From: an archaeon GW2011_AR18
GTDB lineage: Archaea; Nanobdellota; Nanobdellia; SCGC-AAA011-G17; GW2011-AR18
NCBI GenBank assembly: GCA_000806155.1
Contig: JWKX01000001.1
Coordinates: 739 to 64,738 of the forward strand
Direction of reading: 5' to 3'
Length of the DNA: 64,000 nt
Of the stretch, positions 8,754-41,949 are shown piece by piece (positions within the stretch are counted from its first letter, which is position 1; each line of letters begins with the position of its first letter). The notes under the pieces were generated by a model. The model saw only the letters and a program-made list of their open reading frames with translations, had not been told where the DNA came from and did no database searches. The translations under genes and the position numbers were made by a program.

Positions 8754-9307
8754 TAATGCTTTTTTGTATCTTCTGCATGTGAAAAGAATGAAACATTGCA
8801 GTTTATCATTTTTTCATAGAATTCTAGTTCATGTCTTTTCTTTTTTGATTCAAATAATATCATTCCTAATCCTTCCCAGAATAAGAACCATCCTCCCGGC
8901 TCTAATAATATTATCAAGAAATTCAACAATAGGCTATGCTCTTCATAATAAAAGAGTATGAATGTTGCTATAATCATTAGCATAATGCCTGTTATTGTAA
9001 AAGCTGCTCCTTTTTGCATTAATTTAATTTTTTCATCATGCAATAGTTTGTAATGTTTATGAAAATGAACTAACAGCCTTTGTTTGATAATATTCTCATA
9101 ATTTTTATCTCTCCCTTTTAATGGGAGGCAGAATTTTATATTTTTTAATTCTCCTTTCTTTTTTTCTATACTTGCTTTTCTTGTTTCTAGTAAAAAATCA
9201 TCTGATAAAGTTCTTACAGAATAGTTTCTATGATCAAAGTCTGAGAATAGATCATTATATCCATTAAGCCATAGATTTATTTCTGCTGCATTATCTTCCT
9301 CTTTCAT
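8750..9307 (-). CDS. hypothetical membrane protein
   Basis: 185 aa ORF with two or three hydrophobic helices in its C-terminal half. Confidence 0.4.
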   Translation of the reverse strand: MKEEDNAAEINLWLNGYNDLFSDFDHRNYSVRTLSDDFLLETRKASIEKKKGELKNIKFCLPLKGRDKNYENIIKQRLLVHFHKHYKLLHDEKIKLMQKGAAFTITGIMLMIIATFILFYYEEHSLLLNFLIILLEPGGWFLFWEGLGMILFESKKKRHELEFYEKMINCNVSFFSHAEDTKKHY

Positions 9308-9343
9308 AAGAAATTATTTGTTAAAATGAATTTATAAATATTG

Positions 9344-9351
9344 CTTATTTT
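9344..9351 (+). repeat. target site duplication (left copy) CTTATTTT
   Basis: Identical 8-mer immediately outside both inverted repeats. Confidence 0.7.
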
Positions 9352-9373
9352 GGTTCTGTAACTTAAAAGGTTG
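9352..9373 (+). repeat. left terminal inverted repeat of IS6-like element
   Basis: GGTTCTGTAACTTAAAAGGTTG. It begins with GGTTCTG, as in IS26/IS257-type IRs. Confidence 0.8.
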
Positions 9374-9646
9374 ATGAATTATTGGATAGATAGTTTTTTA
9401 AGCATAAAATTATTGATTAGTTTTATGAATAGAAACCAATGGTTAGTACTAAGCATAGGATTATTTTTAGCTGGTTCAATTTTAGTGAATTTTTCAATGT
9501 TTTGTGGTGGGTTTACTGATGAATTATTAACATCTTGTATGATACAAAGGTACGCTTTTGGCATCCCATCTATAATCATGGGTATATTAGGAGTCTTGTT
9601 TTTTATTATAGCATTGTTAGAACCTAAAAAGAAGAACTTAGATTAA
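9374..9646 (+). CDS. small hydrophobic ORF inside IS element (possibly spurious)
   Basis: 91 aa with two hydrophobic segments. It overlaps the 3' end of the transposase gene. Confidence 0.2.
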   Translation: MNYWIDSFLSIKLLISFMNRNQWLVLSIGLFLAGSILVNFSMFCGGFTDELLTSCMIQRYAFGIPSIIMGILGVLFFIIALLEPKKKNLD

Positions 9647-10478
9647 TCAAACTTAACCATTTATTCTGTCCTAGTTTTAATTCTATTAAGCTTTTCTGTG
9701 CTGGTGTTGTATTTATTCCTTGATGTATTCTTATGTAATTATACCACACTATTAGTAAATCTAGTATTGCTATTGCTGAATACTCTCTTTTTAGTCCACG
9801 CATTACTTTTACTCTTTCTCTTATTGTTCCTTGAACTCTCTCAATAATATTGTTTCTTTTATCCTTATCAGCTTTTAGTCTAGTATAACATTCTCTGTCT
9901 TGACTTTTCTTTTTCTTTCCCCATGTTTTACGATATGCTTTCATGTATGCTGGAAGTTTATCAGTAAATAATTTTATTGGTGGTTGTTTTACTTTCATGA
10001 AGAACTTTCTAGCTTCTTTACTGCTTCTCTTAGTTGAATAATGAGTAGCTACCAAAAACCTTGTTCTTGCATCTACAATATCCCAATAATAGTTCTGTTC
10101 ACCTTTACATTTTATGAATATCTCATCAGCATGATATACTCTGCTTAATTGAGGTTCTAAATTGTCTGTAAAAGATTTTATTAGTTTACTATACTTTATT
10201 AGCCATCTCCATACACTCATATGGCTCACTCCTTGAGGAGTAAACTGTCTAACATGACTTCTTATCTTTCTAAGGCTCATTCCATTAAAATACAAATCCA
10301 AACAAGATGTAATAAGTTCTTTTGATTTTCTCATATGATAAAAACCATCATTCAAAGTAAAGAACCTTTTACATTCTTTGCACTTATAACGTTGCTTAAT
10401 TCCGTTAAGTGTTTGCCTTTTAGACCATTTAACAATACTCTTAGAACCACAAAACCTACATTGTATATTCTCTTCCAT
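9624..10478 (-). CDS. IS6 family DDE transposase with N-terminal zinc finger
   Basis: YHADEIFIKCKGEQNYYWDIVDARTRFLV matches the IS6 DE...K..G...Y.W.A.D signature. N-terminal CxxC...CxxC as in archaeal IS6 transposases. C-terminal NNIIERVQGTIRER ... IRIHQG. Confidence 0.8.
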   Translation of the reverse strand: MEENIQCRFCGSKSIVKWSKRQTLNGIKQRYKCKECKRFFTLNDGFYHMRKSKELITSCLDLYFNGMSLRKIRSHVRQFTPQGVSHMSVWRWLIKYSKLIKSFTDNLEPQLSRVYHADEIFIKCKGEQNYYWDIVDARTRFLVATHYSTKRSSKEARKFFMKVKQPPIKLFTDKLPAYMKAYRKTWGKKKKSQDRECYTRLKADKDKRNNIIERVQGTIRERVKVMRGLKREYSAIAILDLLIVWYNYIRIHQGINTTPAQKSLIELKLGQNKWLSLINLSSSF

Positions 10479-10627
10479 AGAATATTATGGTACCGCCAGT
10501 TTATATATCTTACGGTACCATAATTATGGCGCAAAATACAACTTTATCTTTTATATAACTTATTTATCGTCTATTAACATTTTGCGCAAAACAAAGATTT
10601 AAATAGAAGAAAGGCTCTATTTTTAGC

Positions 10628-11695
10628 ATGACATGGGTAAAGCCAAAGGGACATTCTAAATCAAGAATCAATTGGGCAGGAGATGTTTTAATTAATACTG
10701 AATCCACTGAAGAAGAAAAAATACTTGCAATAGAAATATTAGACAATTGGAGAGCAATACACAGTTATCCAATGCACATTTTTAAGAAAAGATTAAAAGA
10801 AAAATCTCGACTTTTAGATAAGAACCTATTAACTGTTCAAAGACTTAAACGTGTTACTGCTATTCTAAATAAACTAAAAAGAACGCAAACAAGTACTATG
10901 AATCTTTCACAGATGCAAGATATTGGCGGTTGTAGAGCCGTCTTGTCTAACGTTGCCCTAGTGAGGGATTTACACGAGAAGTATTACTTAAAGGAAAATT
11001 TTAAGCATAAAAAAATGAAAACACAGGACTATATCTCTAATCCAAAAAATGATGGTTATAGAAGTCTTCATTTAATTTATAAGTATAATACTGATAGAAA
11101 AGGAAAAAAATACTATAATGGATTACTTATAGAAATTCAGATAAGGTCAAGGTTACAACACCTTTGGGCAACAGCAGTTGAAACAGTTGGCTTCTTTACA
11201 AGACAGGCAATTAAATCTAATGAAGGACATCCAGATTGGGCAGAATTTTTTAAATTGATTAGTTCAGCATTTGCTAAAATGGAGAATTGCCCATATGTTC
11301 CAGATACTCCACAAGATGAAAAAGAATTATATACTAAAATAAAAGAAAAAGAAAAAGCATTGAAAATTATAGATAAATTAAAAGCATGGACAAATACAAT
11401 GAGACTTTTAGATGAAAAGATTAAAGCTAAAGATAAACATAAGGTAGAGTTTTTCTTACTAGAATTAGATATTGTTGGTAGAAAATTAGGAATTTTAACC
11501 TATACAAAGGAACAAGAACAAAAAGCTATAGATGATTACTCTGCACTCGAAAAAAGACATAGTGGTGCGAAAGACTATGATGTAGTACTTGTCGGGGCAG
11601 ATACAAGTAAGGATTTGAAAAAAGCTTACCCTAATTATTTTTTAGATACTGGAGACTTCTTAATTTATCTCCAAAAAATTATTAACAAATATTAA
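10628..11695 (+). CDS. RelA/SpoT-homolog synthetase-domain protein (small alarmone synthetase / toxSAS-like), cargo of IS element
   Basis: RLKRVTAILNKLKR, DIGGCRAVL, DYISNPKNDGYRSLHLIY and IEIQIRSRLQHLWA match the nucleotidyltransferase motifs of the (p)ppGpp synthetase domain. There is a roughly 150 aa coiled-coil-rich C-terminal extension and no HD hydrolase domain. Confidence 0.75.
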   Translation: MTWVKPKGHSKSRINWAGDVLINTESTEEEKILAIEILDNWRAIHSYPMHIFKKRLKEKSRLLDKNLLTVQRLKRVTAILNKLKRTQTSTMNLSQMQDIGGCRAVLSNVALVRDLHEKYYLKENFKHKKMKTQDYISNPKNDGYRSLHLIYKYNTDRKGKKYYNGLLIEIQIRSRLQHLWATAVETVGFFTRQAIKSNEGHPDWAEFFKLISSAFAKMENCPYVPDTPQDEKELYTKIKEKEKALKIIDKLKAWTNTMRLLDEKIKAKDKHKVEFFLLELDIVGRKLGILTYTKEQEQKAIDDYSALEKRHSGAKDYDVVLVGADTSKDLKKAYPNYFLDTGDFLIYLQKIINKY

Positions 11696-11697
11696 TA

Positions 11698-11862
11698 CTA
11701 TTCTTTATCAATAATTATTCTGTGATTTTCAATCCTTGCTTTAAGTTCTTTTCCAAAAAAGTTGGACTGTTCTACAATATCTTTAGGTAAATTCAGAATA
11801 TACTTTGAATATTCTTTATTGTCTACCTTCTTTGATAGTACCTTTATTATTTTCATAATCAT
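11698..11862 (-). CDS. small AbrB/SpoVT-like ORF (54 aa), candidate antitoxin
   Basis: Manually translated: MIMKIIKVLSKKVDNKEYSKYILNLPKDIVEQSNFFGKELKARIENHRIIIDKE. Resembles swapped-hairpin antitoxins (VapB/MazE-like). Convergent with the RSH gene and inside the IS. Confidence 0.35.
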   Translation of the reverse strand: MIMKIIKVLSKKVDNKEYSKYILNLPKDIVEQSNFFGKELKARIENHRIIIDKE

Positions 11863-11925
11863 TTAATGTACAACCAGTATTTATATTTTTCTGTACCATA
11901 AAAAATTTTTAAGTTTTTCATCTAT

Positions 11926-11947
11926 CAACCTTTTAAGTTACAGAACC
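11926..11947 (-). repeat. right terminal inverted repeat of IS6-like element
   Basis: CAACCTTTTAAGTTACAGAACC, the exact reverse complement of the left IR. Confidence 0.8.
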
Positions 11948-11955
11948 CTTATTTT
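11948..11955 (+). repeat. target site duplication (right copy) CTTATTTT
   Basis: Identical 8-mer immediately outside both inverted repeats. Confidence 0.7.
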
Positions 11956-11960
11956 AAAGT

Positions 11961-12383
11961 TTATTCTGCTATTAAGTTTCCGTATCCCATTCCCATTGAG
12001 CATGAGAATTTGTATGTTCCTGGTTTTTTTATTGTTAGTTCCAATGTATCTGTGCTTGATATTAAATACTCCGATATTCCTAAACTTCTTATTGTGAATG
12101 CTCTATAGCATCCTGTTACACTGTCATCTAATGTTATGCTTATTTTCTGTCCTGCTTTTACTCTTATCTGATTTGGATAATAATTATAGTTCTTGAAACC
12201 TATTACAATATTTTGCACATCAGCTGTTTCTTCATTTATATTATTTTCATTGACAGGAATTTCTTTTTCAGTATTAGTGAATATAAAATATCCTCCTATT
12301 ATTATGATTATTATTATGCCTAATATTACTGTTGTATTCTTCATTGGAATATTCCACCTCTTGGGCCGTAGATTATTATCCAT
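11961..12383 (-). CDS. cupredoxin-like domain protein with N-terminal signal anchor
   Basis: YYPNQIRVKAGQKISITL ... GTYKFSCSMGMG resembles the small-blue-copper / EfeO-like cupredoxin fold. Adjacent to the copper ATPase cluster. Confidence 0.45.
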   Translation of the reverse strand: MDNNLRPKRWNIPMKNTTVILGIIIIIIIGGYFIFTNTEKEIPVNENNINEETADVQNIVIGFKNYNYYPNQIRVKAGQKISITLDDSVTGCYRAFTIRSLGISEYLISSTDTLELTIKKPGTYKFSCSMGMGYGNLIAE

Positions 12384-16506: not shown

Positions 16507-16579
16507 AAAATAACAGATGCTATTGAGAAGTGGTTTTTTGTATAGCAACATTTAAATAATGTTCAAACTCTATTTTTAT

Positions 16580-33983: not shown

Positions 33984-35116
33984 TCATCTTTCTCCATATC
34001 AGCAGTTTTTGCTATTAATCCTGGTAATCCTGTTCCTAATGGTACTGGCTGATTTAATATTACATTCTCTACTACACTGTTTAGATCATCTCTCTCACCT
34101 ATTAGGCTTGCGTTTATCAGATGTTTTATTGGAGTCTCGAATGTTGCTCTTGCTATTACGCTCTCTTTCTCTCCTGTTATTCCTGTTCTTGTTATTCCCT
34201 TGATATTTCCTGTCATTGTCATTACATCTACTAATAGCATGATATGTCTTACATCTATGCTTATACCCTGGTCTTTCAGTACTTTTGTTGCCTCTCTTAT
34301 TATTGCCTCTCTTGCTCCCTCTATTCCAAATATCTTAGAGACTTCAAATATATCATTTGTCATTATTGTCTCTTTTTCTACTTCCTCTAGTTCTAATGCC
34401 TGTTCTAGGTTTGATCCTGCACATAATATTGTATATCCATTTTCATCTTTTACTGGTAATACATGTGTTACCCCCTCTAATCCTCTTACATGTATCTGTT
34501 TTGCTTTCTCTTTTAATTTATAAATCTCTGATAATAGTAAATCTTTCTCTTTTGGTTTTATTATAATACTTTCATCTCCGCCTTTTACCTCTAAGCTTTT
34601 CATCTCTGTTACTATTTTATCAAATACTGCTTTTGGTTTTATGTCTAATTCTCTTAATTTTTTCTTGTCTAATACTATCTCTATGTTTGCTTTTGCTACA
34701 TTGATTGTGATCTCCTGTGCTACATCCCCTAATTTTGTCTCTTTGATCTTCATTGCAATCTCTCTTACCATATCTGTTGTCTTTGAATATTTTGCTTTTA
34801 ATTTTAGTTCCATTCTTGGTGTGCTTGGTCTTTTTCTTGCATCAAAAATCTCGATCAGTCTAGGTAATCCTACTGTGACCTGCATCTCAGAGACTCCTGC
34901 AAAGTGGAATACATCTAGTGTTAATTGTGTGCTTGGCTCTCCAAAGCTTTCTGCTGTGATTATTCCTATTGCCTCTCCAGGGCTTATTTTTGCTTTCTCA
35001 TATTTTTCTTCCACTCTTCTTGCTGTTTCAGCTTTTTCTTTATCTGTTATCTTGTATTTTTTTGAGTATTTCTCTACTTTATCATGTAAATGTTTTGGTA
35101 ATGTCATTTTATTCAC
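33980..35116 (-). CDS. rpoA2: DNA-directed RNA polymerase subunit A'' (Rpo1C)
   Basis: 378 aa, collinear with the C-terminal third of the largest RNAP subunit. Overlaps the rpoA' stop. Confidence 0.9.
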   Translation of the reverse strand: MNKMTLPKHLHDKVEKYSKKYKITDKEKAETARRVEEKYEKAKISPGEAIGIITAESFGEPSTQLTLDVFHFAGVSEMQVTVGLPRLIEIFDARKRPSTPRMELKLKAKYSKTTDMVREIAMKIKETKLGDVAQEITINVAKANIEIVLDKKKLRELDIKPKAVFDKIVTEMKSLEVKGGDESIIIKPKEKDLLLSEIYKLKEKAKQIHVRGLEGVTHVLPVKDENGYTILCAGSNLEQALELEEVEKETIMTNDIFEVSKIFGIEGAREAIIREATKVLKDQGISIDVRHIMLLVDVMTMTGNIKGITRTGITGEKESVIARATFETPIKHLINASLIGERDDLNSVVENVILNQPVPLGTGLPGLIAKTADMEKDE

Positions 35117-37685
35117 CCACTACTTCCCTCATTGTCTTTACAACTTTGATCTTTCCTGCATCTGTCTTTGAAACATCTAATCCATCATCTCCGTACTTGA
35201 ATTGTACTATGTTATGGTTTGCATCTCTTACTGTATTATCATATTCTACTTTGATATCCTGTAATGCACTTTCCAGTCTTCTGTATAAATATCCTGATCT
35301 AGGTGTTCTTAGAGCTAAGTCCATGAAGCTGTCTCTTCCTGTCATTGAGTGCATGAAGAATTCTTCAGGTGTCAGTCCGTCTTTGTATCCTCTTCTTACA
35401 AATCCTCTTGCTTTTGGTGATAAGTCTCCTCTGTTGAACATGCTTAATGTCCTGTTCCTGTATCCTAAGTCTATTCTCTTTCCTGATAATGACTGCTGTC
35501 CTACACATGCTGCGATCATTGCTAAGTTTAGTAAGTTTCCTTTTGCTCCGGCTAGTGCCATTGTGATTGTTGAGTTGTTTGCATCAGATATCTCTCCTAC
35601 TACCTCTCCTATTCTCTGTCTTGCTTTGTTCAATACCTCTAATATTTTCACTTCTAATGTTGCTTCCAGTGTCTGTCCTGGCAATGGTTCTAATTCTTTT
35701 GATTCATATTGTCCTATCAACTGTGCTACTCTTTTTTCTGCATTATATATTGCCTCTCTGCATTTTTCTTGTACATCTTTAGGTAAGTCAGTATCTGATA
35801 TTGCTGTTGTGAATCCGTAGATTCCTAATGATGCAATTCCTAATCTGAATATTTTTCCTAATATCTGTAATGTTCTTGTATGCCCGTAATTATTTACTAA
35901 TGCTCTTATTAATTCTCCTTTTTCCTGTCCTATTGTTGCCTGGTCTATTACTCCCTCTATTAGCATTCCCTCTTTGATTACTACTGGCTGTTTTGATTTT
36001 GATTTTCCTATGAAGTCCAAGTCTTCAGGTAATAATGCACTGAATATATCTTTTCCATCTACTGTTTTCTTGAATGTTAAGAATCTCTCTGTATCATAAA
36101 ATCCTATGCTATGCAATAATTGTACTGCATCTTCTTTGCTTAATTTCATGAATTTAGTTAATACATAATTTCCTGTTATTGCATCTTCTGAGCATCCTAT
36201 TACATTTGTTCCGTTCTTAGGAGTAATAATCTGTGTCTGTACTTCCATTAATGTTTCTGCTTCTGCTTTTGCCTCTTCTGTCTGGGGAATATGTAAGTTC
36301 ATCTCATCTCCGTCGAAGTCTGCATTATATGGGAAGCATACTGCTGGATTTAATCTAAAGCTTTTTCCTGGCAATACTTTTACTCTGTGAGCCATTATGC
36401 TCATCCTATGTAGGCTTGGTTGTCTGTTGAATATGCTTATATCTCCATCCATCAAATGCCTCTCTACTAAGTATCCTGGTTGTAATTCTTCTAATAATTG
36501 TTCCTGTGTCTCATCTGTGATCTTTTTCTTTCTTCCGTCAGGTCTTACTACATAATTGCTCCCTGGATATTTTTTTGGTCCTGCTTCCACGAACTTCTTT
36601 AATCTTTTCATGTTCCATTCTGTTACTCTCTCTGGTGTTGTAAGTTCCATTGCTACTTCCATTGGCACTCCAACTTCATTGAGTTCTATTTTGGAATCTG
36701 GTGTAATTACTGTTCTTGCTGCATAGTTTACTCTTTTTCCAGCTAGATTATGTCTGAATCTTCCTTCCTTGCTTTTTATTCTCTCACTTAGTGTTCTTAA
36801 TGCCTGTCCTGATCTATGTCTTGCTGGAGGTACCTGGCTTATCTCATTATCAAAATATGTTGTCACATGATATTGTAATAGATCCCATAGATCCTCTACA
36901 ATTATTTCCGGTGCTCCTGCATTTATGTTCTCGAATAATCTCTGGTTAATCCTTACTATATCACCTAATTTATGTGTTAGATCATCCTCTGATCTCTCTC
37001 CTGTCTCTAATGTTATGCTTGGTCTGATTGTTACTGGAGGAACTGGTAATACATTCAGTATCATCCATTCTGGTCTTGCGAATTTTGGATCTAATCCTAA
37101 GAATGCTACATCTGAATCAGAGACTTTTTCCATTCTTGTCCTTATATCTATTGGATTTATTCTCTTGTCATCTTCTAGATATGTTGTTGGTTTTTCAACT
37201 TTTATTGTGTGTTGTTTTGCCTGGCAGTGCGGACACTTTTTCACATTTCTTAATGTTGTAGAAATTCCCTTTACCTGTTTTTTTGTGCTTACATCAGCAT
37301 CATCTTCTGTTACTTCCTGCTCTTCATCATCCTCTATCTGTATTCTCATTTTCTTGTCTGTTAATAATTTTCCGCACTCTCTGCATGTGCATCTTAAGAA
37401 ATTTAATATTACATCTGCATATTTTACATGTATTATTGGTCTTGCTAATTCTAGGAATCCGAAATGTCCCATGCAGTCTCTTAAGTTTCCTCCGCATGTC
37501 TTGCACCTCAATCCTGGATCTATTACTCCTAATCTTACATCCATTAATCCACCATCTACTGGGTATCCTTCCTTATCGAATAATTCTGGTGTTACTATTT
37601 TCGCACAAGCCATCTTTCTTACTATATCTGGGCTTAACATTCCGAAGATCATTGAATTTATTTTTTTGTATACGTAACTTTCCAT
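35109..37685 (-). CDS. rpoA1: DNA-directed RNA polymerase subunit A' (Rpo1N)
   Basis: Zinc motifs CKTCGG and CPHC, catalytic NADFDGDEMNLH. 858 aa. Confidence 0.95.
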   Translation of the reverse strand: MESYVYKKINSMIFGMLSPDIVRKMACAKIVTPELFDKEGYPVDGGLMDVRLGVIDPGLRCKTCGGNLRDCMGHFGFLELARPIIHVKYADVILNFLRCTCRECGKLLTDKKMRIQIEDDEEQEVTEDDADVSTKKQVKGISTTLRNVKKCPHCQAKQHTIKVEKPTTYLEDDKRINPIDIRTRMEKVSDSDVAFLGLDPKFARPEWMILNVLPVPPVTIRPSITLETGERSEDDLTHKLGDIVRINQRLFENINAGAPEIIVEDLWDLLQYHVTTYFDNEISQVPPARHRSGQALRTLSERIKSKEGRFRHNLAGKRVNYAARTVITPDSKIELNEVGVPMEVAMELTTPERVTEWNMKRLKKFVEAGPKKYPGSNYVVRPDGRKKKITDETQEQLLEELQPGYLVERHLMDGDISIFNRQPSLHRMSIMAHRVKVLPGKSFRLNPAVCFPYNADFDGDEMNLHIPQTEEAKAEAETLMEVQTQIITPKNGTNVIGCSEDAITGNYVLTKFMKLSKEDAVQLLHSIGFYDTERFLTFKKTVDGKDIFSALLPEDLDFIGKSKSKQPVVIKEGMLIEGVIDQATIGQEKGELIRALVNNYGHTRTLQILGKIFRLGIASLGIYGFTTAISDTDLPKDVQEKCREAIYNAEKRVAQLIGQYESKELEPLPGQTLEATLEVKILEVLNKARQRIGEVVGEISDANNSTITMALAGAKGNLLNLAMIAACVGQQSLSGKRIDLGYRNRTLSMFNRGDLSPKARGFVRRGYKDGLTPEEFFMHSMTGRDSFMDLALRTPRSGYLYRRLESALQDIKVEYDNTVRDANHNIVQFKYGDDGLDVSKTDAGKIKVVKTMREVVGE

Positions 37686-37686
37686 T

Positions 37687-39489
37687 TTAGTACTTCCTTC
37701 CCAATAATAGTTTTGGATATATGCATAATGATTTTAGTTCATCAATTAATAGCTTGAATGCATAAGCTACCTCTATTAATGATACTTTTACATTGCTTCC
37801 GCATTTTGTACAATACTCTTTATGTTTGTAGCTGTCATATACTGCTATCATTCCACACTCTTCACATACGTATAATAATGTCTTGTCTGAATCAAATCTC
37901 TCTTTCAATAGCATTGATGCTCCATGTGCTACGAAACAATCTTTCTCCATCTCTCCCAATCTTAGTCCTCCTCCTTGTGAACGACCTTCGATTGGCTGTC
38001 TTGTCAATAATTGTATTTTTCCTGTTGCTCTTGCATGTAATTTATTAGCAACCATGTGTTTTAATTTTAAGTAGTACATATTTCCTACATAGATTTTTGC
38101 ATGATATTGTTTTCCTGTTATTCCTGAATAGAATGTCTCAGTTCCGTTATCTCTGAATCCTTCCTCTTTCAACATTTTTCTTATCTCTTTTTCTGAAACT
38201 GAATCAAATGTTGTTCCATCGATATATTCACCTTTTAATGCTCCTGTTTTTCCTGCTACTATTTCTATTAAGTGTGAGATTGTCATTCTTGATGGTATAC
38301 TGTGTGGACTGAATATTAGATCTGGTACTATTCCTGATGCTGAGAATGGCATATCCTGTGGTGGTACTAATAAACTTACTACTCCCTTCTGTCCGTGACG
38401 AGATGCGAATTTATCTCCTACCTCTAATATTCTCGGCTGTCTTAATCTTAATTGTACTAATCTGTTTCCTTCCTCGTTCTCTGTCAATAATGTCATATCA
38501 ACGATTCCATATTCTCCTCTTGTCAGTGATATTGATGATTCTCTTTTTACATTTGTTGCAATATTGAATTCTTCAAATTCTCCTAAGAATCTTGGAGGAC
38601 TTACTTTTCCTATTATTACATCCTCATCTTTTACCTTTGCTCCTGTATAGACAATTCCATCCTCTTCTAATAACCTGTAATCTTTTTCTGTCCTGAATCC
38701 TTTTACCTCTTTGTCAGGTATGCATACCTCATCTACTAATCCACCCTGATATCTTAGTTCTTCTGCATTGAATGGTTTGAAGAATGATGATCTTGCGAAT
38801 CCTCTCTCAACACTTCCTTTGTTTATTACAATAGCATCCTCCATGTTATATCCTTCATAACTCATTAATGCTATTACAATATTCTGTCCTGCCGGATGTT
38901 TGTCTGATTCAAATATCTCATCCATGAATGTTTTTGTTAATGGTTTCTGTGGATAATGCAATACATTTACATCTGTGTCCATCCTTAATAAGAAATTCGC
39001 TGCATAGATTCCTATTGACTGTTTAAGCATCTTGGATCCTCTGATTAATTTTGAGCTTGCGCAGAAATTTGAGAATGGTACTAGTGAACTGCATAATCCT
39101 AACATTGCTAGTGGTGATATCTCTAAGTGTGTATGTTCTTTTGTTAACTCCTCTTCTGATAATGATGTATAGCAGTTCTCTTCCTCAGCTGCATCTATAT
39201 ATTCTATTACTCCGTCTTTTACTAACTTTTCCCATTTTATTGTCCCGTTTTTTAATTCCTGTATATGCTGTTCTGTTAGTTTTGATTTTCCATTCTCTAC
39301 AACTATCAATGGTCTTCTTGCTCTTCCTCTTGTTGTATCAAAGAACATCTCATCATATTCTTGATCATGATGGAAATTTAATTCTGCTGGTAATACACCT
39401 TTTCTTCTCTCTGCTCTTACCTGTTTTATTAAATCTTTAGCACTTTCTGTTGTTCCTATGTATCTTTCATTTAAGAATATGTCTGTCAT
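37687..39489 (-). CDS. rpoB1: DNA-directed RNA polymerase subunit B' (Rpo2C, C-terminal half of split B)
   Basis: GEMEKDCFVAHGAS ... CEECGMIAV ... C-terminal zinc ribbon. 600 aa. Confidence 0.95.
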   Translation of the reverse strand: MTDIFLNERYIGTTESAKDLIKQVRAERRKGVLPAELNFHHDQEYDEMFFDTTRGRARRPLIVVENGKSKLTEQHIQELKNGTIKWEKLVKDGVIEYIDAAEEENCYTSLSEEELTKEHTHLEISPLAMLGLCSSLVPFSNFCASSKLIRGSKMLKQSIGIYAANFLLRMDTDVNVLHYPQKPLTKTFMDEIFESDKHPAGQNIVIALMSYEGYNMEDAIVINKGSVERGFARSSFFKPFNAEELRYQGGLVDEVCIPDKEVKGFRTEKDYRLLEEDGIVYTGAKVKDEDVIIGKVSPPRFLGEFEEFNIATNVKRESSISLTRGEYGIVDMTLLTENEEGNRLVQLRLRQPRILEVGDKFASRHGQKGVVSLLVPPQDMPFSASGIVPDLIFSPHSIPSRMTISHLIEIVAGKTGALKGEYIDGTTFDSVSEKEIRKMLKEEGFRDNGTETFYSGITGKQYHAKIYVGNMYYLKLKHMVANKLHARATGKIQLLTRQPIEGRSQGGGLRLGEMEKDCFVAHGASMLLKERFDSDKTLLYVCEECGMIAVYDSYKHKEYCTKCGSNVKVSLIEVAYAFKLLIDELKSLCIYPKLLLGRKY

Positions 39490-39491
39490 TT

Positions 39492-40982
39492 TTATAGCGC
39501 TAGCTTCACCCCGCAGTTCTCTAAAGCTTTTCTTATCTTATCCTCAGCAGCATCACCTTTTGTAACACCGCATGTTATTGCCATATTTTTTCTTAATCCA
39601 ATTGATGTTCCCTCAGGTGTTTCAATAGGACATAGTCTTCCGTAATGTGTTGGATGTAATGCTCTTGCCTCAAAATTTTCCTGTGTGCTTGTTAGTAATG
39701 AATTTACTCTCTGTAAGTGTGAATAAGCTGCTAAATAGTTTGTCCTGTCCATGTTCTGGCTTATTCCCTTTCTTCCCCCAGTCCATGATCCTGTTGCTAA
39801 TGCACTTTTTATATTTGAACTTAATAATTCATCTCTTATTATTATTTTTATTGACTGGAATTTTCCTCTCTTTACTAGTCTCTGGAAATTATACATTATA
39901 TCCTGTACTAGACTTCTTAGATTTGCTCTCATTAAATCCTCTAATAAATCTCCTGCCAGTTTCAATCTCTTGTTCATGTAATGGTCTTTGTCTGGTAATG
40001 GTAATTCATCCTCGCTTGCTTTCAGGAATTTTCTTACCATTTTACATAAGTTATATGCTTTTACCATTCTGTCTTTTGGTAATGTTCCTAGATGTGGTAA
40101 TAAATATTTATCAAGTTGTTCTCTTGTCTTCTCGAACTTTACCTCTTTTAGTTGTGTTATTCCTATTTTTTTTGCTAGATGTTCTAATGCCTCATCCTCT
40201 GTTTTTAATTCAGCTGAGTCGTATATGTTTATCATTACTGAATCATATTCTGAATCTCCTGATATCATCTTTACTATATCTGAATCTTTTACTAATCCCA
40301 ATGATTTTATTACTGGTATTACTGGAACTCTTCTGAATCTTGTGAATGTTAGATAGAATAATCCGTCTTTCATCTGTTCTATTGTATGAGGTATTCTGTA
40401 ACTTCCCATTTCTGAGAATACTTTACATACATAAGCACTTGGTCCTACTTCTTTCTTCTCTATGAATATTCTGTTTGATGCTAGATCCTCTACTGTTATT
40501 AATACTCTCTCATTTCCGTTTATTATAAAATATCCTCCAGCTTCATTCGGATCTTCACCTTTCTGTATTAATTCCTCTCTCTTTAATCCGTATAGATGGC
40601 AGTATTTTGATCTTATCATTATTGGCAGCTTTCCTATCATTGCTGTGAAATTTTCTCTCTGTATATCATCTACATATGCACTTACTTCTAGATATATTGG
40701 TGCTGAATATGTTAAGCTTCTTAATCTTGCTTCACAAGGATAGATATCTCTCTTGCTTCCATCTGCCTCTATTATAGACGGTTTTTCTATCCATATCTTT
40801 TTTAATTTTATTACAAAACTCTCCACCTCTTGCGGTATTATTGTCGGAACTACATCACCTAATTCATCTACTAATTTTTGTAATTGTTTTTCTATGAAAT
40901 CATTGAAGCTTCTTATATTTGATTCTACAAAAGGATTCTCTCTGAAAAATGCTTGTAATATCTCCCTGTACTCCTTAACCAT
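39492..40982 (-). CDS. rpoB2: DNA-directed RNA polymerase subunit B'' (Rpo2N, N-terminal half of split B)
   Basis: 496 aa, N-terminal rpoB homology. Split rpoB arrangement. Confidence 0.95.
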
Positions 40983-41217
40983 TTACTACCACCCTATAAT
41001 ATTCACTCTCTCCGATTGTCGGACTCTTTCTTTTTATCATTATCACATCACCAATTTTTACTTCTATCATTTTTAATGCTGGATCATCATTTTTTATTCT
41101 TGGTAATTGTTTAGAAGAAATATTATATTTTTTTAGTACTTCCTGTTTTTGCTCTTCGCTTAATTTTACATGCTGAGGAACCAAGACATGTTTTATTATT
41201 GTTTGTTTCTCTTCCAT
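40975..41217 (-). CDS. rpoH: DNA-directed RNA polymerase subunit H (Rpo5)
   Basis: [24 protein letters not shown] ... [18 protein letters not shown] matches RpoH. First gene of the operon. Confidence 0.85.
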
Positions 41218-41231
41218 TTTTTGTGATTATG

Positions 41232-41379
41232 CGGGCCGGATGGGACTTTCAATCTTTCTTATCTTTTTGAACCCACGACCACTTGCTTTCATTCCGCTTG
41301 TTAAAAGGAACACCATCGACGAAATGATTTTTTCACATCGAGACGATTCAAGTGCTCTACCAAGCTGAGCTACCGGCCC
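41232..41379 (-). tRNA. tRNA with two inserts (anticodon-arm region and T-loop); isotype unresolved
   Basis: Acceptor GGGCCGG/CCGGCCC plus discriminator G. D-arm TAGCTCAGCTTGGTAGAGC. T-stem GTGGG/CCCAT, with a 20-nt insert in the T-loop TTCAAA[...]T. About 55 nt is inserted between CTTGA and GCAAG. The anticodon could not be assigned unambiguously (CGT, i.e. Thr, is one reading). Confidence 0.55.
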
Positions 41380-41595
41380 TTTGGTCATAGATCTATCTAA
41401 TGACATAGTTCAATCTATTGGAACATTATTGATGCTAGTGTCTTAGAAAGATTCATAAGTTCGAATGAAACGCGAGTAGTATATAAAGCTTTTGCTAGGC
41501 TGTTATATTTAAACATTACTGTAATTTATAGTTATGATTATTTTATAAAACTTGCTCTATATAATATATGTTGGATATTTTTATAAGAAAATTAA

Positions 41596-41705
41596 CGCCC
41601 TGGCCGAGATTTGAACTCGAGTTATGACCTTTCGTTGACAAAACATTATATAAAATAAAGCTTCATCTCGACAGGGTCAGGTGCTGACCGCTACACTACC
41701 AAGGC
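41596..41705 (-). tRNA. tRNA-Asp (GTC) with canonical-position intron (~38 nt)
   Basis: GCCTTGG-TA-GTGT-AGCGGTCA-GCAC-C-TGACC-CTGTCG[intron]A-GGTCA-TAAC-TCGAG-TTCAAAT-CTCGG-CCAGGGC-G. Confidence 0.75.
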
Positions 41706-41763
41706 CTAATTTGAAGTCTATTCAAGTAATTTATAAATTTTTCTCATTTTAAAAAGAATAGAG

Positions 41764-41925
41764 TCCCCTAGGAGGGATTCGAACCCCCAGCCTGTCGGGA
41801 TCAGCTGTTTGTTTTTCATTTCTTAGCATTATGCTTTTGATCAAACAATGATTTTCATCTACAGCCGACTGCTCCACCGCTACTCCCCTTATACTAAATG
41901 TATATAGAGCTTGAGCTACCAGGGG
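41764..41925 (-). tRNA. tRNA-Tyr (GTA) with two introns (D-loop ~30 nt and anticodon loop ~60 nt)
   Basis: Acceptor CCCCTGG/CTAGGGG with a C1-G72 pair. D-stem GCTC ... GAGC, with an insert inside the D-loop. Anticodon stem GTCGG/CCGAC, loop CTGTAG[intron]C. T-arm GGGGG-TTCGAAT-CCCTC. Confidence 0.65.
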
Positions 41926-41949
41926 GAACTCTAATAAAAATGAAAGGTG

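What the first reader, a model, noticed from the sequence alone, without database searches (positions are those of the whole stretch)
10628..11695. RelA/SpoT-synthetase (toxSAS-like) gene as transposon cargo in an archaeon
The protein has the (p)ppGpp-synthetase nucleotidyltransferase motifs (DIGGCRAV, GYRSLHLIY, EIQIRSRLQHLWA) but no HD hydrolase domain. It has a 150-aa coiled-coil-rich C-terminus. In bacteria, stand-alone RSH synthetases of this size on mobile DNA are often toxins (toxSAS, CapRel-like) that pyrophosphorylate nucleotides or tRNA. RSH genes are rare in archaea. Finding one inside a recently inserted IS suggests horizontal acquisition of a toxin or defence module.
Basis: partly seen in the sequence, partly recalled or inferred. 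Interest (0 to 1): 0.75.

Follow-up and report, generated by a model that had tools for sequence, protein, structure and literature searches.

The report
Archaeal transposon carrying CapRel defence gene
A tiny groundwater archaeon carries, inside a 2.6-kb IS6-type jumping element, a full-length relative of the bacterial anti-phage protein CapRel (a self-inhibited enzyme that stops translation by modifying tRNA), which shows that this immune module is widespread in archaea and can travel as transposon cargo.

Summary
The ORF at 10628-11695 (+, 355 aa) is real and is an RSH synthetase-only protein. It is more specific than "toxSAS-like". It matches the fused toxin-antitoxin CapRel of Salmonella phage SJ46 end to end (PDB 7ZTB: phmmer E 1e-47; Foldseek TM 0.70). 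It keeps the ATP-site residues, the G-loop tyrosine and the C-terminal YxxY auto-inhibition motif, and it hits PADLOC candidate PDC-S33 over its full length, as SJ46 CapRel also does.

The C-terminus is CapRel's alpha/beta "pseudo-zinc-finger" sensor-antitoxin domain, not a coiled coil.

The gene lies inside a 2,596-bp IS6-family element (9352-11947) with perfect 24-bp inverted repeats and an 8-bp target duplication. That supports the cargo claim.

First, this clade is not rare in archaea: at least 201 species-level genomes carry it, and 74 of the best 80 are DPANN or Methanoperedens. Second, the adjacent 54-aa ORF is probably not CapRel's antitoxin. It looks like an AbrB/MazE-like gene of the transposon backbone.

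Related DPANN IS6 elements carry other cargo in the same position. A second, divergent IS6 element carries CapRel as well.

Archaeal CapRel genes also carry a conserved GCGCAAAA promoter element.

The mechanism (virus-triggered tRNA pyrophosphorylation) is inferred by homology and was not tested.

The parts
9344..9351 (.). Left copy of the 8-bp target-site duplication CTTATTTT
   Evidence: Read. It is identical to 11948-11955. The chance of an 8/8 match at this base composition is about 6e-5 (own estimate).
9352..11947 (.). Whole IS6-family transporter insertion sequence, 2,596 bp, single copy in the window
   Evidence: It is bounded by perfect inverted repeats and a target duplication. No internal repeat copy is found at up to 3 mismatches. 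There is no second copy of any of its genes in the window.
9352..9375 (+). Left terminal inverted repeat GGTTCTGTAACTTAAAAGGTTGAT (GG tip and CTGT motif typical of IS6)
   Evidence: The IS6 end features are described in PMC7986276. The same GGTTCTGTAAC tip is found on related elements.
9371..9646 (+). 91-aa ORF, possible small membrane protein. It starts inside the left repeat and overlaps the 3' end of the transposase gene. Its status is uncertain.
   Evidence: No Pfam hit. It is called as a 90-aa or 73-aa gene in most public assemblies. tblastn finds only weak matches in L060 and L080.
9624..10478 (-). IS6-family DDE transposase, 284 aa, with an N-terminal CxxC zinc-ribbon
   Evidence: Pfam DDE_Tnp_IS240, E 2.2e-17. 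NCBIfam transpos_IS6, E 1.3e-33, 116 bits, covering 1-201 of 202 profile positions (just under the cut-off of 125). Zn-binding domain NF050000, 29.9 bits against a cut-off of 28.
10489..10519 (-). Transposase promoter: two GGTACC sites (10489, 10514) bracket a TATA-like box
   Evidence: GGTACC occurs only 3 times in the 64-kb window. The same GGTAC-TATA-GTACC layout is found at the orf54 and transposase promoters of five elements.
10529..10605 (+). CapRel promoter module: distal GCGCAAAA box (10529-10536), proximal palindrome TTTTGCGCAAAA (10580-10591), TATA box TTTAAATA (10598-10605) 22 nt before the ATG
   Evidence: GCGCAAAA is found nowhere else in the window. The same boxes lie upstream of 49 of 77 archaeal-clade CapRel genes in unrelated contexts. 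They are absent upstream of SJ46 and other bacterial or phage CapRels.
10628..11695 (+). CapRel-family fused toxin-antitoxin (RSH synthetase-only), 355 aa
10838..11173 (+). toxSYNTH (RelA_SpoT) catalytic core, residues 71-182. It holds R72, D98, R103, Y144 (G-loop), E169, Q171 and R173.
   Evidence: Pfam. These residues are invariant in 34 homologues. They map onto SJ46 R79, R116 and Y155 through, with the residue roles taken from PMC9712102.
11228..11605 (+). Linker helices and pseudo-ZFD sensor-antitoxin domain, residues ~201-326. This is the most variable part of the protein.
   Evidence: Secondary structure H202-218, H231-245, H247-268, E273-281, E286-293, H294-310, E317-323. It aligns to the C-terminal half of 7ZTB. 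Mean column entropy is 1.35 against 0.80 for the catalytic core.
11627..11638 (+). YxxY auto-inhibition motif (Y334-P-N-Y337) within LKKAYPNYF
   Evidence: The sequence is identical to SJ46 LKKAYPNYF (Y352/Y355). It is invariant in 34 homologues. Its role is described in PMC9712102.
11698..11862 (-). orf54: 54-aa AbrB/MazE-like small protein, convergent with CapRel (2 nt between the stop codons). Probably a gene of the IS backbone that acts as a regulator.
   Evidence: The family has 1,123 proteins. The AlphaFold model has pLDDT 90 and a beta-beta-alpha-beta-beta topology. The top Foldseek hits are MazE, C68, C56, VapB and AbrB, but with E of 1 or more. One member has a Pfam MazE hit at E 0.024. 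The gene occurs in IS6 elements that carry other cargo.
11863..11905 (-). orf54 promoter, with a GGTAC motif and a TATA-like box similar to the transposase promoter
11924..11947 (-). Right terminal inverted repeat, 24/24 identical to the left one
11948..11955 (.). Right copy of the target-site duplication CTTATTTT. It lies 5 nt from the stop codon of the cupredoxin gene.

Best explanation
The ORF encodes an archaeal-clade member of the CapRel family. CapRel is a single-polypeptide (fused) toxin-antitoxin and innate-immunity sensor.

Shown here:
- An N-terminal RelA/SpoT-type toxSYNTH domain with an intact active site.
- A C-terminal pseudo-zinc-finger domain.
- A conserved YxxY helix.
- Location as cargo inside a 2,596-bp IS6-family transporter IS with perfect ends and an 8-bp target duplication.

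Inferred by homology to CapRel SJ46:
- In uninfected cells the C-terminal domain folds back, and the YxxY segment blocks the ATP site.
- A viral protein (for SJ46 a major capsid protein) binds the variable pseudo-ZFD and holds the enzyme open.
- The enzyme then transfers pyrophosphate from ATP to the 3'-CCA end of tRNAs. This blocks aminoacylation and translation, so the infection aborts. The tRNA target is universal, so the enzyme can work in archaea.

Inferred from comparative anatomy:
- The gene moves together with its own ~100-nt promoter module (GCGCAAAA boxes plus a TATA box).
- In this genome the module sits in the cargo slot between the transposase gene and a small AbrB/MazE-like backbone gene (orf54). 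In related DPANN elements the same slot holds other genes.
- The IS transposes as one unit by the IS6 copy-in (cointegrate) route, so it can spread the defence gene between replicons.
For: Identity as CapRel:
- Full-length phmmer match to 7ztb_A and 9erv_A, E 1e-47, residues 9-351 against 14-368.
- BLASTP gives 32% identity over 363 columns, E 4e-52.
- The AlphaFold model (pLDDT 78.7, pTM 0.74) has CapRel SJ46 as its top Foldseek hits (E 2.5e-24, TM 0.69-0.72 over 354-360 columns). The ordinary SAS enzymes cover only about 190 columns.
- PADLOC PDC-S33 matches at E 2.6e-118 over residues 1-353. SJ46 CapRel hits the same and only that model.

Functional residues. R72, R103, Y144, V320, L321, A333, Y334 and Y337 are invariant in 34 homologues. 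They align to SJ46 R79, R116, Y155, V338, L339, A351, Y352 and Y355, whose roles are given in PMC9712102. The sensor domain is more variable than the catalytic core.

Not housekeeping. The NCBIfam YjbM model scores 58 bits against a cut-off of 320, and spoT_relA scores 23 against 499. There is no conserved neighbour across 81 loci.

Transposon:
- Inverted repeats and target duplication and an IS6 transposase.
- A second element, L102/L162, has a transposase only 38% identical, perfect 25-bp repeats and its own duplication. It carries the same order of genes: transposase, CapRel, orf54.
- Relatives with 55-68% identical transposases share the GGTTCTGTAAC tip and 8-bp duplications, are 2.37-2.6 kb long, and carry other cargo.
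- One of these element types sits at two different sites, each with its own duplication (L106 and L108). That shows that cargo-bearing units of this group do move.
Against: - The substrate (tRNA rather than ATP/ADP, which would give (pp)pApp), the toxicity, the autoinhibition and the antiviral role all rest on 32% identity to one characterised protein.
- No virus or trigger is known for this host.
- The archaeal clade is almost absent from viral collections: 0 phage records and 1 of 35 IMG/VR hits. It therefore lacks the prophage association typical of bacterial CapRel.
- The insertion site is not a defence island. The neighbours are a copper-resistance operon and housekeeping genes.
- Only one insertion site of this particular element is known, so its present mobility is inferred from the intact ends alone.
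- The NCBIfam IS6 score (116) is just below the curated cut-off (125).
Confidence: 0.75

Rival explanations
1. orf54 and CapRel form a classical two-gene toxin-antitoxin pair, with the small AbrB/MazE-like protein as the cognate antitoxin. This is what the reader's proposed test with 'the adjacent small ORF' implies.
For: - orf54-type genes lie immediately downstream of CapRel and convergent with it in 5 of 81 loci: the window, L029, L084, L102 and L039.
- The orf54 fold is like that of MazE/VapB-type antitoxin DNA-binding domains.
- The window has only 2 nt between the two stop codons.
Against: - 76 of 81 archaeal CapRel loci lack orf54.
- CapRel keeps its own fused antitoxin domain and YxxY motif.
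- orf54 has 52-58 aa, which is a bare DNA-binding domain with no toxin-binding tail.
- Homologues occur in IS6 elements without CapRel (L110, L161, L166) and in loci with neither (L164, L168).
- Its promoter duplicates the transposase promoter, not the CapRel promoter.
- CapRels next to orf54 are scattered across the tree.
Confidence: 0.1
2. The protein is a housekeeping small alarmone synthetase that makes (p)ppGpp for a stringent-like response in the archaeon. It would be neither a toxin nor an immune sensor.
For: The RelA_SpoT domain and all catalytic motifs are intact. There is detectable similarity to the YjbM/RelQ and YwaC/RelP structures.
Against: - Similarity to RelP/RelQ covers only the ~115-residue core (E about 1e-11), while CapRel matches end to end (E 1e-47).
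- The NCBIfam equivalog cut-offs are missed by a wide margin.
- There is no synteny across 81 loci.
- The gene sits inside a transposon.
- The autoinhibitory YxxY motif is conserved.
Confidence: 0.04
3. The module works mainly as an addiction or stabilisation device for the transposon, or for the replicon it lands on, rather than as antiviral immunity. The catalytic chemistry may be tRNA modification or (pp)pApp synthesis.
For: - A related IS6 element carries a PIN plus ribbon-helix-helix (VapBC-like) pair in the equivalent position. Toxin-antitoxin cargo therefore recurs in this IS group.
- The archaeal clade is almost absent from viral contigs.
- The insertion site is not a defence island.
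- Some toxSAS enzymes make (pp)pApp instead of modifying tRNA (PMC11782079 abstract).
Against: - A fused toxin-antitoxin has no separately degradable antitoxin, so classical post-segregational killing is hard to achieve.
- The sensor domain is the variable part of the protein. That pattern is expected under an arms race with a changing ligand.
- SJ46 CapRel and its characterised homologues are activated by phage proteins (PMC9712102, PMC11578894, PMC13423816).
- Most cargo of the related IS elements has no recognisable toxin-antitoxin or defence function.
Confidence: 0.12
4. The 2.6-kb unit is not a single mobile element. It would be an ordinary IS6 next to a resident CapRel gene, with the right-hand repeat being a leftover solo end of another copy (a decayed pseudo-compound transposon).
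For: - In L040 (Methanoperedens) an ordinary ~1-kb IS6 with its own repeats sits 125 nt upstream of a CapRel gene that lies outside it. IS6 elements therefore do land next to CapRel.
- L029 has an IS-end-like 25-mer (20 of 25 matches) next to orf54 in the opposite orientation.
- L109 looks like a recombinant of two copies.
Against: - The 8-bp duplication flanks the whole 2,596-bp unit.
- No third repeat copy is found between the transposase gene and CapRel, even at 3 mismatches.
- The two ends are 24/24 identical, and similarity extends to 49 nt.
- Three further elements (L102, L161, L106/L108) show the same whole-unit repeats and duplications around multi-gene contents.
Confidence: 0.07

Closest known systems
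CapRel SJ46 (Salmonella phage SJ46; PDB 7ZTB, 9ERV), a fused toxSAS toxin-antitoxin and anti-phage sensor (Zhang et al. 2022, PMC9712102)
   Same: - Same length class (355 aa against 373 aa) and the same domain order: toxSYNTH, three linker helices, pseudo-ZFD, C-terminal helix.
- 32% identity from end to end.
- The adenine-binding arginines, the G-loop tyrosine, the YxxY motif and the docking-interface residues are conserved.
- The sensor domain is the more variable part.
   Different: - The host is an archaeon.
- The vehicle is an IS6 transposon rather than a P1-like prophage.
- The archaeal clade has its own conserved promoter with GCGCAAAA boxes and an archaeal TATA box. This is absent upstream of SJ46 and of other bacterial or phage homologues.
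- The trigger is unknown, and the activity is untested.
PADLOC phage-defence candidate PDC-S33 (single-gene candidate, PADLOC-DB v2.0.0)
   Same: The window protein matches the profile over its full length (E 2.6e-118), and so does SJ46 CapRel (E 1.2e-85). In this library PDC-S33 is therefore the fused-CapRel family.
   Different: PDC-S33 is only a bioinformatic candidate label. No paper in the searchable library mentions it. It says nothing about archaeal hosts or transposon carriage.
Two-gene toxSAS modules (FaRel2/ATfaRel2, PhRel2, bicistronic CapRel/PhRel; Jimmy et al. preprint 10.1101/575399; Kurata et al. preprint 10.1101/2021.04.30.441581)
   Same: An RSH synthetase-only toxin on mobile DNA. 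The likely chemistry is pyrophosphorylation of tRNA CCA ends, or (pp)pApp synthesis.
   Different: In those systems the antitoxin is a separate, conserved neighbouring gene. Here the antitoxin domain is fused, and the only recurrent small neighbour (orf54) is present in just 5 of 81 loci.
IS6 family insertion sequences (IS26, IS257, archaeal ISH-type; review by Varani et al. 2021, PMC7986276)
   Same: - DDE_Tnp_IS240 / IS6-type transposase.
- Short terminal repeats with a GG tip and a CTGT motif.
- An 8-bp target duplication.
   Different: - Ordinary IS6 elements are 0.7-0.9 kb long with one gene, and they move cargo only as pseudo-compound transposons with two IS copies.
- The review lists a single member (ISDsp3) with a passenger gene, and it finds zinc-finger transposases mostly in Clostridia.
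- This element is 2.6 kb long, has four ORFs inside one pair of ends, and has a zinc-ribbon transposase.
- It belongs to a DPANN group in which multi-gene content is the rule.
RelP/RelQ (YwaC/YjbM) small alarmone synthetases
   Same: They share the catalytic fold and motifs of the ~115-residue core.
   Different: - They have no C-terminal sensor domain and no YxxY motif.
- They are tetrameric housekeeping enzymes at stable loci.
- The NCBIfam cut-offs are not reached.
AbrB/MazE/SpoVT swapped-hairpin DNA-binding proteins, including C68 of pSSVx and C56 of pSSVi from archaeal mobile elements (comparison for orf54)
   Same: - About 50 aa with a beta-beta-alpha-beta-beta topology.
- These proteins are the top Foldseek hits.
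- They are encoded on mobile elements.
   Different: - The structural matches are not statistically significant (E of 1 or more).
- No Pfam model reaches threshold.
- A profile search of PDB sequences finds nothing.
- DNA binding is untested.

Membership tests
CapRel (fused toxSAS toxin-antitoxin) | RelA/SpoT-type toxSYNTH domain with an intact active site (adenine-binding arginines, G-loop tyrosine, acidic/ExQ motif) | tested here: met
   PF04607 scores 67.7 bits against a cut-off of 27. R72, R103, Y144, E169, Q171 and R173 are invariant in 34 homologues. They align to SJ46 R79, R116 and Y155.
CapRel (fused toxSAS toxin-antitoxin) | No HD hydrolase domain and no TGS/ACT regulatory domains | tested here: met
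   Only PF04607 is found in the 355 aa. The long-RSH models score 18-23 bits against cut-offs of 499-728.
CapRel (fused toxSAS toxin-antitoxin) | C-terminal pseudo-ZFD antitoxin/sensor domain fused in the same polypeptide, joined by three helices | tested here: met
   The sequence match to 7ZTB runs to residue 351. Foldseek gives TM 0.70 over 354-360 columns. The model shows three helices, a three-stranded sheet with a connecting helix, and C-terminal helices, as described in PMC9712102. Model confidence in this half is moderate (pLDDT 66-92).
CapRel (fused toxSAS toxin-antitoxin) | YxxY neutralisation motif and conserved docking-interface residues | tested here: met
   LKKAYPNYF is identical to SJ46. 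Y334, Y337, A333, V320 and L321 are invariant. SJ46 A77 and A341 are replaced by V70 and G323.
CapRel (fused toxSAS toxin-antitoxin) | Sensor domain more variable than the catalytic domain | tested here: met
   Mean column entropy is 1.35 for residues 231-326 against 0.80 for residues 66-200, across 79 archaeal-clade sequences.
CapRel (fused toxSAS toxin-antitoxin) | Pyrophosphorylates the 3'-CCA end of tRNA. The N-terminal domain alone is toxic and the full-length protein is not. | not testable with these tools
   This needs biochemistry and expression assays.
CapRel (fused toxSAS toxin-antitoxin) | Activated by direct binding of a viral protein, and protects against infection | not testable with these tools
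   No virus of this host is known. The archaeal clade is nearly absent from viral collections.
IS6 family insertion sequence | IS6-type DDE transposase | tested here: met
   PF13610 scores 63.9 bits against a cut-off of 27. NCBIfam transpos_IS6 gives E 1.3e-33 over the full profile, but 116 bits against a cut-off of 125.
IS6 family insertion sequence | Short terminal inverted repeats with a GG tip and a cTGTt motif | tested here: met
   GGTTCTGTAAC..., 24/24 identical ends. The family feature is taken from PMC7986276.
IS6 family insertion sequence | 8-bp target-site duplication | tested here: met
   CTTATTTT on both sides. 8-bp duplications are also seen on L106, L108 and L112.
IS6 family insertion sequence | Compact element (~0.7-0.9 kb) encoding only the transposase | tested here: not met
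   The element is 2,596 bp long with four ORFs. It is therefore filed as a transporter-IS variant of IS6, not as a canonical IS6.
IS6 family insertion sequence | Replicative (cointegrate) transposition | not testable with these tools
   This needs a mating-out or cointegrate assay. The only indirect hint is L109, a possible recombinant between two copies.
Housekeeping SAS (RelP/RelQ) | Equivalog-level similarity and a stable chromosomal locus shared by related species | tested here: not met
   NF053588 scores 58 bits against a cut-off of 320. There is no shared neighbour across 81 loci. The nearest relatives P0003 and P0004 lie in unrelated contexts.
Two-gene type II toxin-antitoxin (orf54 as antitoxin) | Conserved adjacent antitoxin gene across the toxin family | tested here: not met
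   orf54 lies next to CapRel in only 5 of 81 loci, and these are scattered in the tree. orf54 also occurs without CapRel.
AbrB/MazE/SpoVT domain (orf54) | Swapped-hairpin beta-beta-alpha-beta-beta DNA-binding fold, or a match to PF04014 | tested here: inconclusive
   The topology fits, with pLDDT 90. The top Foldseek hits are MazE, C68, C56, VapB1 and AbrB-N, but E is 1 or more. PF04014 gives E 0.024 in 1 of 7 members. The PDB profile search gives no hit.

The most novel reading that the evidence does not exclude
DPANN archaea may host a previously undescribed group of IS6-derived transposons with a fixed backbone: terminal repeats, a zinc-ribbon transposase and a small AbrB-like repressor that controls duplicated GGTAC-TATA-GTACC promoters. 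The group would also have an exchangeable cargo slot that repeatedly picks up self-contained toxin or immunity cassettes. The archaeal CapRel cassette carries its own operator (GCGCAAAA boxes, kept even where the core promoter switches from an archaeal TATA box to a bacterial TTGACA box). This would imply that CapRel represses its own transcription, presumably through the zinc-finger-like sensor domain. Binding of a viral ligand would then both unleash the toxin and de-repress its gene.
Probability: 0.2. Interest if true: 0.75.

Novelty: new variant of a known kind. Interest (0 to 1): 0.6.

Why it matters
CapRel is one of the few immune proteins for which direct sensing of a viral protein has been worked out. 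All of that work is in enterobacteria and their phages.

- **A large archaeal clade.** At least 201 species-level genomes carry it, mainly DPANN and Methanoperedens, and its catalytic and autoinhibitory residues are intact. This extends the mechanism to the other prokaryotic domain. These organisms have tiny genomes, and their viruses and defences are barely known.
- **A route of spread.** Because the gene sits inside a single-copy IS6-type unit, it has a concrete way to move. It also exposes a group of IS6 elements that carry several genes between one pair of ends. The standard review of the family lists only one such case.
- **Testable cis-elements.** The conserved promoter elements found here (GCGCAAAA boxes upstream of CapRel; GGTAC-TATA-GTACC at the orf54 and transposase genes) give specific hypotheses about how a fused toxin-antitoxin and its vehicle are regulated.

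If the protein is simply a CapRel orthologue with the expected activity, the result is a solid but incremental extension of the known range.

Tried and rejected
1. **Empty-site search.** I looked up every public contig encoding the exact transposase, CapRel and the 185-aa left neighbour. All carry the element, including short contigs that begin at the IS end. All are at least 99.86% identical. The age of the insertion could therefore not be judged.
2. **Internal repeat.** An internal third repeat copy would make this an ordinary IS next to a resident gene. None was found at up to 3 mismatches.
3. **IS6 end remnants near other CapRel genes.** I scanned the other 80 archaeal CapRel loci for GGTTCTGTAAC at up to 1 mismatch. 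Nothing lies next to CapRel. Only L029 has an L102-type end-like 25-mer.
4. **orf54 as antitoxin.** I rejected this on distribution, promoter similarity and phylogeny.
5. **orf54 family assignment.**
   - There is no Pfam, NCBIfam or PADLOC hit.
   - The PDB sequence-profile search gives nothing.
   - The single-sequence homologue search found only 3 proteins, while the profile search found 1,123.
   - The fold search points to MazE/AbrB but is not significant.
6. **Viral origin.** There is no archaeal-clade hit among 50,697 phage records. Only one IMG/VR contig holds a member above 60% identity.
7. **Defence function of other IS cargo.** PADLOC and Pfam give only a PIN/RHH pair and an XRE HTH. 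The rest is unknown, so I do not claim that the IS group is dedicated to defence cargo.
8. **Coiled-coil reading of the C-terminus.** I rejected this on the basis of the model and the 7ZTB match.
9. **Literature.** No paper in the library combines CapRel with DPANN, Woesearchaeota, Nanoarchaeota or Methanoperedens among the listed hits. None mentions PDC-S33. The 2022 CapRel paper does not mention archaea. The library is incomplete, so prior mention elsewhere cannot be excluded.
10. **Unused caps.** I did not use the search of protein representatives or the third fold search, because they would not have changed the verdict.


Full report
**Observation**

The ORF at 10628-11695 (+) is present exactly as described. 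It runs 355 aa from ATG to stop, and its translation holds the quoted motifs. Pfam finds one domain, RelA_SpoT (PF04607), at residues 71-182 (E 1.4e-18). It finds no hydrolase domain. The NCBIfam models for RelQ/YjbM and for long RelA/SpoT proteins match only the catalytic core and score far below their cut-offs (58 against 320; 23 against 499). The window is archaeal. It holds an archaeal SRP RNA. Identical proteins are deposited under 'Candidatus Woesearchaeota archaeon' and 'archaeon GW2011_AR18'. The window is 100% identical to GCA_013331775.1 contig DUFT01000003.1 over the region compared.

**What the protein is**

It is a full-length homologue of CapRel, the fused toxin-antitoxin of Salmonella phage SJ46.

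- *Sequence.* A sequence search of the PDB gives 7ZTB and 9ERV at E 1e-47, aligned from residue 9 to 351. BLASTP gives 32% identity over 363 columns. Ordinary small alarmone synthetases match only residues ~70-188, at E about 1e-11.
- *Structure.* An AlphaFold model built on 34 homologues (pLDDT 78.7, pTM 0.74) finds CapRel SJ46 as its best structural match. The E-value is 2.5e-24 and the TM-score 0.69-0.72 over 354-360 columns. RelP/RelQ structures cover only about 190 columns.
- *C-terminal half.* The model has three helices, a three-stranded sheet with a connecting helix, and terminal helices. That is the pseudo-zinc-finger domain (pseudo-ZFD) arrangement described for CapRel (PMC9712102). 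It is not a coiled coil.
- *Functional residues.* The residues that paper identifies as functional are conserved here and invariant among 34 homologues:

| SJ46 residue | Window residue | Role in SJ46 |
|---|---|---|
| R79, R116 | R72, R103 | adenine binding |
| Y155 | Y144 | G-loop |
| Y352, Y355 | Y334, Y337 | YxxY neutralisation motif |
| V338, L339, A351 | V320, L321, A333 | docking interface |

- *Defence library.* PADLOC's candidate PDC-S33 matches the window protein over its full length (E 2.6e-118). It is also the only model hit by SJ46 CapRel (E 1.2e-85). In that library PDC-S33 is therefore the fused CapRel family.
- *Variability.* Within 79 archaeal-clade sequences the catalytic core is the most conserved part (mean entropy 0.80). 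The sensor region 231-326 is the most variable (1.35), and the YxxY segment is conserved (0.59). This matches the pattern reported for bacterial CapRel.

**Distribution**

The word-based search found 7,112 related proteins. The best 120 are all about 355 aa long and 61-69% identical. A scan of one genome per GTDB species found 201 relatives. Of the best 80 (54-65% identity, full length), 74 are archaeal MAGs. They come from Woese-, Nano-, Pace-, Aenigmat-, Micr- and Iainarchaeota, Nanohaloarchaea, and Methanoperedens and other Methanosarcinales. Six are labelled Patescibacteria, Saccharibacteria, Gammaproteobacteria or 'bacterium'.

The older RSH censuses list capRel only for bacteria and describe RSHs as few in archaea (PMC3153485). 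For this clade that statement no longer holds.

The clade is nearly absent from viral collections. It has no hit in 50,697 phage records, where SJ46 itself is the best hit at 32%. It has one hit above 60% identity among 35 IMG/VR hits.

Genomic contexts are highly variable. Among 81 loci no neighbour family is shared by more than six, and the shared ones are ribosomal-protein genes of related genomes. The two nearest relatives (68% identity) sit in unrelated, IS-free contexts. The gene therefore behaves as a solitary mobile cassette.

**The vehicle**

Perfect 24-bp inverted repeats (GGTTCTGTAACTTAAAAGGTTGAT) lie at 9352-9375 and 11924-11947. They are flanked by an 8-bp direct repeat, CTTATTTT. 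Between them lie four ORFs:

- a 91-aa ORF of uncertain status;
- a 284-aa transposase with an N-terminal zinc ribbon and an IS6-type DDE domain;
- CapRel;
- a 54-aa ORF (orf54).

The GG tip, the CTGT motif and the 8-bp duplication are the IS6 hallmarks (PMC7986276). The size and gene content are not. That review lists only one IS6 member with a passenger gene.

The element was inserted 44 nt upstream of a 185-aa membrane-protein gene and 5 nt downstream of a cupredoxin gene that ends a copper-resistance operon. It shows no GC anomaly and is single copy in the window.

**Related elements**

The element is one of a group.

- Transposase relatives at 55-68% identity, several from the same aquifer metagenomes, have the same GGTTCTGTAAC...GGTTGAT ends and 8-bp duplications. 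They are 2.37-2.6 kb long and carry other genes. These include a 228-aa protein plus an XRE-type HTH protein (L106, L108), and a PIN-domain protein plus a ribbon-helix-helix protein, with two small ORFs (L112/L113).
- The L106/L108 element sits at two sites, each with its own duplication. Multi-gene units of this group therefore do transpose.
- A more distant element in a Nanoarchaeota MAG (L102, also L162) has a transposase only 38% identical. It has perfect 25-bp repeats and its own duplication. It carries the same arrangement of transposase, CapRel and an orf54 homologue.
- In a Methanoperedens contig (L040) an ordinary ~1-kb IS6 sits next to CapRel but does not include it.
- In a neighbour-joining tree the two IS-borne CapRels fall in different clades. 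The association therefore arose more than once, or the cargo is exchanged.
- Most other cargo has no recognisable function. I do not claim that the group is specialised for defence genes.

**The small ORF**

orf54 belongs to a family of 1,123 proteins of 52-58 aa with no Pfam model. Its model is confident (pLDDT 90) and has a beta-beta-alpha-beta-beta topology. The best structural matches are MazE, the archaeal plasmid/virus proteins C68 and C56, VapB1 bound to operator DNA, and the AbrB N-domain. None is significant, with E of 1 or more. One member gives a weak PF04014 hit.

orf54 follows CapRel in only 5 of 81 loci, and those loci are scattered in the tree. It is also found in IS6-type elements with other cargo: L161, which has perfect 26-bp repeats, L166 and L110. 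It also occurs beside a GmrSD-like gene (L164) and beside unrelated genes (L168).

Within each element the orf54 and transposase promoters are near-duplicates. Their consensus is TTTnAGGTACAGAAAGnTTTATATACTTCnnGTACC. In the window, two of the only three GGTACC sites bracket the transposase TATA box.

The best reading is that orf54 is a transposon-backbone regulator and not CapRel's antitoxin. This is an inference from the comparative evidence.

**A conserved cis-element**

In the 130 nt upstream of 77 archaeal-clade CapRel genes, GCGCAAAA occurs in 49, ACCGCGCA in 48 and the TATA box TTTAAATA in 51. Typically a distal box lies about 54 nt upstream of a proximal box, which abuts the TATA box. 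A third GCGCAA box often lies near the start codon.

In the window the boxes are at 10529-10536 and 10580-10591, the latter as the palindrome TTTTGCGCAAAA. They occur nowhere else in the 64 kb. Across the 80 loci there are only 131 occurrences in 1.5 Mb counted on both strands, and most of them lie in these upstream windows.

The element is absent upstream of SJ46 and of the 32-41% identical viral-contig homologues. In a mixed bacterial/archaeal sub-clade the box is kept but is followed by TTGACA in place of the archaeal TATA arrangement.

The surrounding genes are unrelated, so the element travels with the gene. Autoregulation by CapRel itself is a plausible reading. The pseudo-ZFD was noted to superpose on a zinc-finger transcription factor (PMC9712102). 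This idea is untested.

**Mechanism**

*Shown:* the domain architecture, the conserved catalytic and autoinhibitory residues, the transposon boundaries and the comparative anatomy.

*Inferred from SJ46 CapRel (PMC9712102; PMC11578894):*
1. The closed state has the YxxY segment in the ATP site.
2. Opening occurs when a viral protein binds the pseudo-ZFD.
3. The open enzyme pyrophosphorylates tRNA 3'-CCA ends.
4. Translation arrest and abortive infection follow.

*Inferred from IS6 biology (PMC7986276):* copy-in transposition of the whole 2.6-kb unit.

*Unknown:* the trigger, the actual substrate, whether the element is still active, and when it was inserted.

**Verdict**

The protein is a new, archaeal member of a known family. 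The vehicle is a variant of IS6 that is not described in the literature I could search, and so is the conserved promoter element. Overall this is a new variant of a known kind and of moderate to good interest.

Noticed in passing
window 10529-10605; upstream 130 nt of CapRel in L026-L105 and L126: A conserved promoter module travels with archaeal-clade CapRel genes. It has two or three GCGCAAAA / ACCGCGCAAAA boxes about 54 nt apart plus a TTTAAATA TATA box. The boxes are found in 49 of 77 loci, nowhere else in the window, and not upstream of bacterial or phage CapRels. A sub-clade that includes bacterial-labelled contigs keeps the box but follows it with TTGACA.
   Followed up: partly
window 10479-10541 and 11863-11925; the same regions in L102, L110, L161, L166, L029, L084: The orf54 and transposase promoters share a near-identical GGTAC-GAAAG-TATA-TTCA-GTACC layout within each element. 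This suggests co-regulation, possibly by the AbrB-like orf54 product.
   Followed up: partly
L106 87-2505; L108 3988-6400; L109 3988-6586: The same cargo-bearing IS6 element sits at two sites with different 8-bp duplications (taaattag and gttttttg). L109 combines the left flank of L108 with the right flank of L106 and has a different right-hand cargo gene. It is either a recombinant between two copies or a chimeric assembly.
   Followed up: partly
L112 3839-6209 (= L113 442-2812): A related IS6 element with target duplication ctaattct carries a PIN-domain protein (199 aa) and a ribbon-helix-helix protein (46 aa). This is a VapBC-like toxin-antitoxin pair placed upstream of the transposase gene.
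   Followed up: partly
L161 692-3736: A third type of IS6-like element has perfect 26-bp repeats and an 8-9 bp duplication. An orf54 homologue lies next to one end. In the position CapRel occupies in the window, it carries three unknown genes (224, 71 and 61 aa), and a 220-aa zinc-ribbon protein lies after the transposase gene.
   Followed up: partly
L029 7292-7316: A 25-mer matches the L102-type IS end at 20 of 25 positions. It lies just upstream of the orf54 homologue but in the opposite orientation to that in L102. It may be a trace of an IS6-mediated inversion or of an abutting element.
   Followed up: no
L164/L165 2613-6301: An orf54-family gene lies between a GmrSD_N/HNH-type gene and an SDH-protease-family gene, next to a DDE_Tnp_1 transposase, an MBL-fold protein and a DNA methyltransferase. 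This looks like a defence or mobile island that does not involve IS6.
   Followed up: no
window 16533 onward compared with L002 (GCA_018302485.1): One otherwise 99.9% identical assembly diverges from the window after position 16533. There it encodes TrbC/T4SS-pilin-like and other small genes. This is a strain-variable region about 4.5 kb from the IS.
   Followed up: no
window 9307-9351 and 11956-11963: The IS split an intergenic space of about 57 nt between the end of a copper-resistance operon (cupredoxin, P-type ATPase, HMA, ArsR-type regulator) and a 185-aa membrane-protein gene. That gene now lies 44 nt beyond the IS end, on the same strand as the transposase gene. It may be transcribed from within the IS.
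   Followed up: no
window 41596-41705: Rfam finds a 110-nt tRNA match on the minus strand (44 bits), while ARAGORN reports no tRNA in the window. This is consistent with an intron-containing archaeal tRNA.
   Followed up: no
window 34000-42000: GC content rises to 0.34-0.36, against about 0.29 elsewhere, over a run of large minus-strand ORFs (378, 858, 600 and 496 aa). I did not examine these further.
   Followed up: no
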